Shown piece after piece: positions 38,556 to 39,017 of a stretch of 64,000 bases of DNA. The notes beneath the pieces are model-generated. The model did no database searches. It was not told where the DNA came from and saw only the letters and a program-made list of their open reading frames with translations. Numbering within the stretch: the first letter of the stretch is position 1; each line of letters opens with the position of its first letter. Made by a program: the position numbers and the translations under genes. Source of the stretch: Shigella phage vB_SdyM_006; the sequence record MK295204. One strand, written 5' to 3'.

Positions 38556-39017
38556 CTATAATTTGTCTGTCCAATCCAAATCAAGTGGTTCTGTGTATTC
38601 ATAATCTAAAATGATAGGAACATCAAATGTACCTTCAATTTTAAGTTCTCCGATATCATAACTCAATGTTATATGTGGAGAATAATCTGGAAAGTCATGA
38701 GTACCGCCAATAGCAATACCATAATTATGTCTATACGTAAGATAATCAGATGTATACTTAAAAACTAAAGCTGATTTACCGGATTCGGTTTTCCATGTGT
38801 CTAAAGTTCCATGATCTGCTAATTTAAAACTGCCTGAACTTGGGGTATAAGGAACATTTACTCTAGAATATAAAATAGTACTATGCAATTTTTCTCTAGG
38901 AACAGGAAACGGGACCTTTAAATCCCGTTGTAATTGTTCGATTGCATCTAGTGTTAATCCTGAGAACTTGGCACCGACATATGTCCCAGTGTTAGTCAGC
39001 ATCAATAGTTCCTTCAT
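38556..39017 (-). CDS. 57B: 2H-phosphoesterase (gene 57B / Acb1-like)
   Basis: 153 aa with two H-x-T motifs (HSTILY, HITLSY) typical of the 2H phosphoesterase fold; adjacent to 57A and gene 1. Confidence 0.65.

What the first reader, a model, noticed from the sequence alone, without database searches (positions are those of the whole stretch)
38556..39017. 2H-phosphoesterase at the 57B position (Acb1-like anti-CBASS candidate)
The 153-aa product has two H-x-T motifs (HSTILY and HITLSY) separated by about 80 residues, the signature of the 2H phosphoesterase fold, and lies at the gene 57B position next to 57A and gene 1. The T4 gene at this position has been described as Acb1, a phosphodiesterase that cleaves cyclic oligonucleotide immune signals.
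Basis: partly seen in the sequence, partly recalled or inferred. Interest (0 to 1): 0.45.

Follow-up and report, generated by a model that had tools for sequence, protein, structure and literature searches.

The report
Ordinary Acb1 anti-CBASS phosphodiesterase gene

Summary
The ORF is real and lies on the minus strand. It matches Pfam Acb1 (PF23474) end to end at E=1.2e-52. It matches the Acb1 crystal structure 7T26/7T27 at E=2.7e-56 in one ungapped 142-residue alignment. It is 62.6% identical to T4 gp57B, the founding Acb1. All nine residues that Hobbs et al. 2022 describe as functional are conserved: the HxT/HxT tetrad, four base-stacking aromatics and the adenine-reading Glu. Gene order matches T4 (ipI-like, 57B, 57A, 1, 3, 2, 4, 53). 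dN/dS of 0.07-0.17 against Bragavirus orthologues indicates purifying selection.

There are three small corrections. The true start is most likely the ATG at 39002, giving 148 aa rather than 153. The catalytic histidines are 70 residues apart, not about 80. A third HxT (HGT) is not catalytic.

The identical 148-aa protein is already in GenBank (Shigella phage vB_SdyM_006, "hypothetical protein"). UniProt names orthologues in the same 90%-identity cluster "Anti-CBASS protein Acb1". The "RNA ligase" label in RefSeq and PHROGs is an outdated carry-over.

The one mildly interesting extra is that the central part of acb1 occurs as two alleles, 78% identical, among otherwise near-identical Bragavirus phages. 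Enzyme activity was not tested. Interest is low.

The parts
38556..39002 (-). acb1 (gene 57B orthologue) CDS, 148 aa plus stop, from the most likely start codon
   Evidence: Pfam PF23474 Acb1 E=1.2e-52, profile 1-144/144. PDB 7T26 E=2.7e-56. 62.6% identity to T4 57B. Start supported.
39003..39017 (-). Five in-frame codons (MKELL) upstream of the likely start.
   Evidence: In phiP4-3 the upstream ATG is ACG, and relatives annotate 148 aa (150 aa in SJ_PmiM). The exact 153-aa form is not in the protein collection.
39010..39014 (-). AAGGA Shine-Dalgarno-like sequence 7 nt upstream of the ATG at 39002, inside the end of 57A
   Evidence: Read directly from the sequence.
38877..38885 (-). First catalytic HxT motif. 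H45-S-T47 in 153-aa numbering, H40/T42 in 148-aa numbering, T4 H44/T46.
   Evidence: Role from PMC9117128.
38667..38675 (-). Second catalytic HxT motif. H115-I-T117 in 153-aa numbering, H110/T112 in 148-aa numbering, T4 H113/T115.
   Evidence: Role from PMC9117128.
38559..38581 (-). C-terminal lid segment (LDWTDKL), including W149 (T4 W147), which stacks on the nucleobase
   Evidence: Alignment to T4 and 7T26. Lid role from PMC9117128 and the Doherty 2025 preprint.
38591..38874 (-). Central acb1 segment carrying the PM2/Pm5461/SJ_PmiM-type allele. It is strongly divergent from phiP4-3 even though the flanks are phiP4-3-like.
   Evidence: DNA alignment. Per-gene identities. dS about 2.1 in codons 44-138 against 0.37 in codons 2-43.
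38992..39252 (-). 57A tail-fibre chaperone gene. Its last 11 nt overlap the acb1 start.
   Evidence: PHROG 1002 E=2.9e-21. Pfam GP57 E=9.7e-06, at 25.7 bits just under the 27-bit cut-off.
39233..39892 (-). Gene 1, dNMP kinase
   Evidence: Pfam DNMK E=4.2e-54.
38223..38495 (-). Internal-virion-protein-like gene at the T4 ipI position, immediately downstream of acb1
   Evidence: PHROG 8765 E=4.6e-39. Shares the MKTFxEF N-terminus with T4 IpI.
37883..38161 (-). Second small gene with the same MKTFxEF N-terminus. It is followed by a terminator-like hairpin at 37842-37865.

Best explanation
The gene encodes an active Acb1, a small metal-independent 2H-family phosphodiesterase of a T4-like (Bragavirus) phage. 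During infection it would bind adenosine-containing cyclic di- and trinucleotide immune signals (3'3'-cGAMP, cUA, cA3/cAAA, cAAG) in a U-shaped pocket. Four aromatic side chains (Y13, W75, F109, W149 in 153-aa numbering) stack on the bases, and E143 reads the adenine N6. The C-terminal lid closes over the ligand. The H45/T47 + H115/T117 tetrad then cleaves 3' of adenosine through a 2',3'-cyclic phosphate intermediate. This linearises the signal before CBASS effectors can be activated.

Shown here: homology, residue conservation, synteny, an intact reading frame and purifying selection.

Inferred from T4 and FBB1 Acb1: the substrates, the chemistry and the anti-CBASS effect.

The 11-nt overlap with 57A suggests co-transcription and coupled translation with gene 1 and 57A. 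That is also an inference.
For: - Family and structure matches: Pfam Acb1 is full length at E=1.2e-52, 177.9 bits against a 27-bit cut-off. PDB 7T26/7T27 Acb1 matches at E=2.7e-56, ungapped over residues 11-152.
- T4 homology and residues: 62.6% identity to T4 57B, and all nine functional residues are conserved (T4 Y12, H44, T46, W74, F107, H113, T115, E141, W147).
- Gene order: T4 synteny ipI-57B-57A-1-3-2-4-53.
- Distribution: tblastn finds homologues in 1472 phage records, 1458 of them covering at least 80% of the query.
- Selection: dN/dS is 0.07 against PM2 and 0.17 against phiP4-3.
- Existing naming: UniProt already names cluster-mates at 90% identity or more 'Anti-CBASS protein Acb1'.
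- Published biochemistry: Hobbs et al. tested 9 further acb1 homologues and all cleaved 3'3'-cGAMP and cAAA.
Against: - No biochemical or genetic test exists for this protein or for any Bragavirus orthologue that I found.
- Single-sequence AlphaFold gave no usable model (pLDDT 34), so the fold rests on sequence homology to the crystal structure.
- No convincing dedicated promoter was found. Sigma-70-like matches in the region are no more frequent than in shuffles (24 against 18.2 +/- 4.8), and there is no TATAAATA directly upstream.
- I found no literature documenting CBASS in the Proteus or Shigella hosts of these phages.
Confidence: 0.9

Rival explanations
1. It is a LigT-like 2'-5' RNA ligase or 2',3'-cyclic phosphodiesterase acting on RNA ends (for example tRNA repair near the phage tRNA cluster), as the 'RNA ligase' label in RefSeq and PHROGs implies.
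For: PHROG 755 is labelled 'RNA ligase' (E=5.1e-57), and RefSeq annotates the T4, phiP4-3, PM2 and Pm5461 orthologues the same way. The 2H fold is shared with LigT. A nine-tRNA cluster lies 3 kb away.
Against: No LigT or other 2H-family Pfam model matches even at E up to 10; only Acb1 does. NCBIfam gives nothing. The founding member, T4 57B, was shown biochemically to be a cyclic-oligonucleotide phosphodiesterase (PMC9117128). The label predates that work. All nucleobase-stacking and lid residues specific to cyclic-nucleotide binding are conserved.
Confidence: 0.03
2. It is an Acb1-fold enzyme whose biologically relevant target or range differs from T4 Acb1. It might mainly counter cA3-signalling type III CRISPR, or it might have a narrowed specificity that avoids 2'3'-c-di-AMP and so escapes Panoptes.
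For: Viral 2H phosphodiesterases with conserved active sites differ in substrate range, and the protein core governs that specificity (Doherty 2025 preprint). Acb1 degrades cA3, which type III CRISPR and type II Panoptes also use. The protein is 37% different from T4 Acb1. The core segment exists as two alleles in Bragavirus.
Against: All residues known to contact the ligand are identical to T4 Acb1 in the window's allele. The identity of about 60% to both T4 and FBB1 Acb1 lies within the range of homologues that all behaved alike in Hobbs et al.. PDE-9, the enzyme with narrowed specificity, matches the window protein only weakly (9q2g, E=0.051) and uses an N-terminal lid.
Confidence: 0.06
3. 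It is a decayed or inactive remnant, as in phage Bas43, where acb1 is disrupted.
For: acb1 is lost or mutated in some T-even phages under Panoptes pressure.
Against: The reading frame is intact with a complete C-terminal lid. All catalytic and binding residues are present. dN/dS is 0.07-0.17.
Confidence: 0.01

Closest known systems
T4 gp57B = Acb1 (NP_049750.1; Hobbs et al. 2022, PMC9117128)
   Same: Same genomic slot (between ipI and 57A/gene 1) and the same length class. 62.6% identity over the whole protein. Identical HxT/HxT tetrad, identical Y/W/F/W base-stacking residues, identical adenine-reading Glu, and a C-terminal lid.
   Different: - 37% of residues differ.
- One extra residue in the beta-hairpin region (SGKSA against DG-ST).
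- A shorter N-terminus (T4 has MMEFKDFS before the conserved TG).
- An 11-nt overlap with 57A instead of T4's 4-nt overlap.
- Host range is Proteus/Shigella rather than E. coli.
- Activity is untested.
Erwinia phage FBB1 Acb1 (PDB 7T26 apo, 7T27 with 3'3'-cGAMP)
   Same: Ungapped alignment over 142 residues, E=2.7e-56. This establishes the 2H fold by homology.
   Different: FBB1 has F where the window protein and T4 have W at the T4 W74 position, and Y at the T4 F107 position (read from the alignment). The phiP4-3 allele shows the same two conservative aromatic swaps.
Bragavirus orthologues (PM2 YP_010091993.1, Pm5461 YP_009195548.1, SJ_PmiM QQV89591.1, phiP4-3 YP_010093668.1; vB_SdyM_006 AZV01267.1)
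   Same: AZV01267.1 is 100% identical (148 aa). PM2 is 96.6% identical. Synteny is the same. UniProt names the PM2 and Pm5461 proteins 'Anti-CBASS protein Acb1'.
   Different: phiP4-3 carries a 78%-identical allele whose central segment is saturated at synonymous sites relative to the window. GenBank and RefSeq label these proteins 'hypothetical protein' or 'RNA ligase'.
2H PDE-9 (PDB 9q2g/9q2y, deposited as 'Anti-CBASS protein Acb1'; Doherty 2025 preprint)
   Same: Same 2H structural group and the same HxT chemistry. It also degrades 3'3'-cGAMP.
   Different: Only a marginal sequence match (E=0.051). It uses an N-terminal rather than a C-terminal lid and avoids 2'3'-c-di-AMP. The window protein is of the T4 type, not this type.
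LigT / 2'-5' RNA ligase family of 2H phosphoesterases
   Same: Two HxT motifs on a 2H fold.
   Different: No detectable sequence match to the LigT-type Pfam models. LigT proteins act on RNA ends rather than on cyclic oligonucleotide signals.

Membership tests
Acb1 (Pfam PF23474; T4 57B family) | Full-length sequence match to the family profile above the curated threshold | tested here: met
   177.9 bits against a 27-bit cut-off, E=1.2e-52, profile positions 1-144 of 144.
Acb1 (Pfam PF23474; T4 57B family) | Catalytic HxT/HxT tetrad (T4 H44, T46, H113, T115) | tested here: met
   H45, T47, H115, T117 in 153-aa numbering.
Acb1 (Pfam PF23474; T4 57B family) | Compact 2H phosphoesterase fold | tested here: met
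   Met by homology: an ungapped 142-residue alignment to crystal structure 7T26, E=2.7e-56. An independent single-sequence AlphaFold model failed (pLDDT 34), so there is no structural confirmation of my own.
Acb1 (Pfam PF23474; T4 57B family) | Base-stacking aromatics (T4 Y12, W74, F107, W147) and the adenine-N6 contact (E141) | tested here: met
   Y13, W75, F109, W149 and E143 are all identical to T4.
Acb1 (Pfam PF23474; T4 57B family) | C-terminal lid that orders over the ligand | tested here: met
   The C-terminus [11 protein letters not shown] aligns with T4 EPLKLDWADDLK and is not truncated. Lid ordering itself cannot be tested here.
Acb1 (Pfam PF23474; T4 57B family) | Genomic position next to 57A/gene 1 and the ipI anti-restriction locus in T4-like phages (supportive, not strictly defining) | tested here: met
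Acb1 (Pfam PF23474; T4 57B family) | Metal-independent cleavage of adenosine-containing cyclic di- and trinucleotides (3'3'-cGAMP, cUA, cA3) but not cGG | not testable with these tools
   Requires recombinant protein and TLC/HPLC assays. Inferred from T4 and FBB1 Acb1 and from 9 further homologues tested in PMC9117128.
Acb1 (Pfam PF23474; T4 57B family) | Protects the phage from CBASS in vivo | not testable with these tools
   Requires a delta-acb1 phage and CBASS-bearing hosts.
LigT-type 2'-5' RNA ligase / cyclic phosphodiesterase (the source of the 'RNA ligase' label) | Sequence match to LigT-type 2H Pfam or NCBIfam models | tested here: not met
   The Pfam scan at E up to 10 returns only Acb1 plus two noise-level DUF hits. 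NCBIfam returns nothing.

The most novel reading that the evidence does not exclude
The two Bragavirus acb1 alleles are the window/PM2 type and the phiP4-3 type. They are 78% identical, differ in the enzyme core, and show W-to-F and F-to-Y changes at two base-stacking positions. They could have been exchanged by recombination because they differ in substrate range. One might avoid the decoy nucleotides that trigger Panoptes while still destroying CBASS signals. That would make this locus a natural specificity switch.
Probability: 0.06. Interest if true: 0.45.

Novelty: already known. Interest (0 to 1): 0.1.

Why it matters
It matters little as a discovery. Acb1 is a characterised anti-CBASS enzyme with a Pfam family, crystal structures and more than a thousand phage homologues, and this exact protein is already deposited.

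It has practical value for annotation. The GenBank and RefSeq labels for this protein and its orthologues ('hypothetical protein', 'RNA ligase') should read Acb1.

It also predicts phage-host outcomes for Proteus/Shigella T4-like phages that are considered for therapy. They should resist cGAMP- and cA3-type CBASS, and they should be sensitive to Panoptes-type guard systems that detect Acb1 activity.

Tried and rejected
- **AlphaFold2, single sequence.** Mean pLDDT was 34.3, so the model is unusable and no fold search was run on it. I ran no further search on building an alignment, because a 60%-identical crystal structure already settles the fold.
- **NCBIfam scan.** No family matched.
- **Loose Pfam scan for rival 2H families.** Nothing but Acb1.
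- **Sigma-70 promoter scan.** 24 sites against 18.2 +/- 4.8 in shuffles, so no promoter can be assigned to acb1.
- **T4 late-promoter motif TATAAATA.** 10 matches against 18 expected by chance. The nearest one on the gene's strand (39574-39581) lies inside gene 1 and is not directly upstream of acb1.
- **The look-up of encoding contigs for the exact protein.** It returned only a 1.1-kb Logan contig, which adds no context.
- **Literature search for CBASS in Proteus mirabilis.** Nothing pertinent.
- **The 153-aa start (ATG 39017).** Rejected in favour of 39002.
- **Accelerated evolution as the explanation for the low identity to phiP4-3.** Rejected in favour of allele replacement, because synonymous divergence jumps from 0.37 to about 2.1 within the gene while dN/dS stays low.

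Full report
**Observation.** The minus-strand ORF 38556..39017 exists, with 153 aa counted from the first ATG. It contains HSTILY (H45-Y50) and HITLSY (H115-Y120). The catalytic histidines are 70 residues apart, not about 80. There is a third, non-catalytic HxT (H69-G-T). Two or more HxT motifs occur in only 2 of the 73 six-frame ORFs of at least 100 aa in the window. The motif pair is therefore uncommon but not decisive by itself. No ORF of at least 40 aa lies on the opposite strand beneath the gene.

**Identity.**
- The protein matches Pfam PF23474 (Acb1) over the entire profile, 1-144 of 144, at E=1.2e-52 and 177.9 bits against a 27-bit cut-off.
- It matches the crystallised Acb1 of Erwinia phage FBB1 (PDB 7T26/7T27) at E=2.7e-56 in a single ungapped alignment of residues 11-152.
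- Direct alignment with T4 gp57B, taken from NC_000866, gives 62.6% identity.
- T4 57B is the protein that Hobbs et al. purified by activity and named Acb1 (PMC9117128).
- That paper names an HxT/HxT tetrad (H44, T46, H113, T115), four base-stacking aromatics (Y12, W74, F107, W147) and E141, which reads the adenine N6. All nine map onto identical residues here: Y13, H45, T47, W75, F109, H115, T117, E143, W149 in 153-aa numbering.
- The C-terminal lid is complete.

**Context.**
- The neighbours are 57A (PHROG 1002, E=2.9e-21), gene 1 dNMP kinase (Pfam DNMK, E=4.2e-54), gp3, gp2 and gp4, with gp53 on the other strand.
- On the downstream side is an internal-virion-protein-like gene (PHROG 8765, E=4.6e-39).
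- This is exactly the T4 order ipI-57B-57A-1-3-2-4-53.
- A cluster of nine tRNA genes lies at 33128-35562, as in T4.
- The window comes from a Bragavirus (T4-like Proteus phages). The region is 91.7% identical in nucleotides to phiP4-3.

**Start codon.**
- The ATG at 39002 has an AAGGA sequence 7 nt upstream.
- In a five-phage DNA alignment, all four relatives start with GTG at that column.
- phiP4-3 has ACG where the window has the upstream ATG.
- Relatives are annotated at 148 aa, or 150 aa in SJ_PmiM.
- The exact 148-aa sequence is in public collections and the exact 153-aa sequence is not.
- The gene is therefore best placed at 38556..39002, overlapping the end of 57A by 11 nt. That overlap suggests co-transcription and possibly coupled translation, which is an inference.
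- No dedicated promoter could be assigned.

**Is it functional?** The frame is intact. dN/dS is 0.07 against PM2 and 0.17 against phiP4-3, which indicates purifying selection. Homologues occur in 1472 phage records, and 1458 of them cover at least 80% of the query. Hobbs et al. tested nine further homologues and all cleaved 3'3'-cGAMP and cAAA.

**Mechanism.**
- Inferred from T4 and FBB1 Acb1: metal-independent acid-base cleavage 3' of adenosine via a 2',3'-cyclic phosphate. This linearises adenosine-containing cyclic di- and trinucleotides before they can activate CBASS effectors.
- Known consequence from recent work: such broad activity also degrades cA3 and 2'3'-c-di-AMP. It therefore makes Acb1-carrying phages detectable by Panoptes guard systems.

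**Rivals.** The 'RNA ligase' label in PHROGs and RefSeq is a legacy of the shared 2H fold. No LigT-type model matches even at E up to 10, and NCBIfam has nothing. A shifted substrate range cannot be excluded without biochemistry, since the protein core governs specificity in viral 2H phosphodiesterases. However, every known ligand contact is identical to T4. Inactivation is contradicted by the conserved residues and by the selection signal.

**Novelty.** The identical protein is GenBank AZV01267.1 from Shigella phage vB_SdyM_006, annotated as hypothetical. That phage was published as 98% similar to phiP4-3 (PMC7925395). Cluster-mates from PM2 and Pm5461 are already named 'Anti-CBASS protein Acb1' by UniProt. 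The finding is correct but already known.

**Side observation: two acb1 alleles.**
- The window's acb1 is 96.6% identical to PM2's but only 77.7% to phiP4-3's.
- The flanking genes show the reverse. 57A is 97.7% identical to phiP4-3 and 77.6% to PM2. The two IP-like genes are 98-99% identical to phiP4-3.
- The divergent stretch against phiP4-3 is confined to about 38591-38874.
- dS there is about 2.1, against 0.37 in the N-terminal third and 0 in the last ten codons.
- This is the pattern of allele replacement by recombination, not of local fast evolution.
- The phiP4-3 allele carries W-to-F and F-to-Y changes at two stacking positions. FBB1 Acb1 has the same two residues, so these changes are compatible with activity.
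- Whether the alleles differ in specificity is untested.

**What failed.** The single-sequence AlphaFold model was unusable (pLDDT 34.3). The contig look-up returned only a 1.1-kb fragment. A literature search for CBASS in Proteus found nothing relevant.

Noticed in passing
window 38591-38874 (inside acb1), compared with L001 (phiP4-3) and L003 (PM2): The locus is mosaic. The acb1 core is 96.6% identical in protein to PM2 but 77.7% to phiP4-3, while the adjacent 57A and IP-like genes are 98-99% identical to phiP4-3 and 57A is about 78% identical to PM2. Synonymous divergence against phiP4-3 jumps from 0.37 to about 2.1 inside the gene, which indicates allele replacement by recombination.
   Followed up: partly
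window 37883-38161 and 38223-38495 (minus strand): Two tandem small genes (92 and 90 aa) share only the N-terminal MKTFxEF with each other and with T4 IpI. From prior knowledge, that motif resembles the capsid-targeting sequence of T4 internal proteins. The slot is variable among relatives: PM2 and Pm5461 have one 173-aa gene there, and SJ_PmiM has only one of the two. It is probably a hyperplastic anti-defence locus next to acb1, like ipI in T4.
   Followed up: partly
window 38908-38929: A 7-bp inverted repeat with an 8-nt loop (AACGGGA...TCCCGTT) lies inside the acb1 coding region and was flagged as terminator-like on the plus strand. The stem is identical in all five Bragavirus phages, so there is no covariation to judge it by. 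No plus-strand gene is nearby, so it is probably incidental.
   Followed up: partly
window 40573-40591 (gap between gp3 and gp2, 40474-40664): A perfect 8-bp GC-rich palindromic hairpin (TCTGGAGC-GCA-GCTCCAGA) scores as terminator-like on both strands, in a 190-nt intergenic gap.
   Followed up: no
window 33128-35562 (minus strand): A cluster of nine tRNA genes (Glu, Ser, Asp, Gly, Met, Tyr, Arg, Trp, Asn) sits in the T4-equivalent tRNA region. Three TATAAATA late-promoter-like motifs lie among or just beside them (35239, 35332, 35655, minus strand).
   Followed up: no
window 41934-41941 (+) and 41952-41959 (-): Divergent TATAAATA late-promoter motifs lie between gp4 and gp53. They match the positions of the promoters annotated in phage Pm5461.
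   Followed up: no
whole window / protein 38556-39002: The exact Acb1 protein is deposited from a phage named as a Shigella dysenteriae phage (vB_SdyM_006), although every close relative is a Proteus phage (Bragavirus). That genome did not appear among the hits in the 'phages' collection searched here. The host assignment or host range of this lineage may be broader than the names suggest.
   Followed up: partly
window 40665-41483 (minus strand): The gp2 (DNA end protector) ORF is listed from a GTG, giving 272 aa. Relatives annotate 269 aa (810 nt), so the real start is probably three codons downstream.
   Followed up: no
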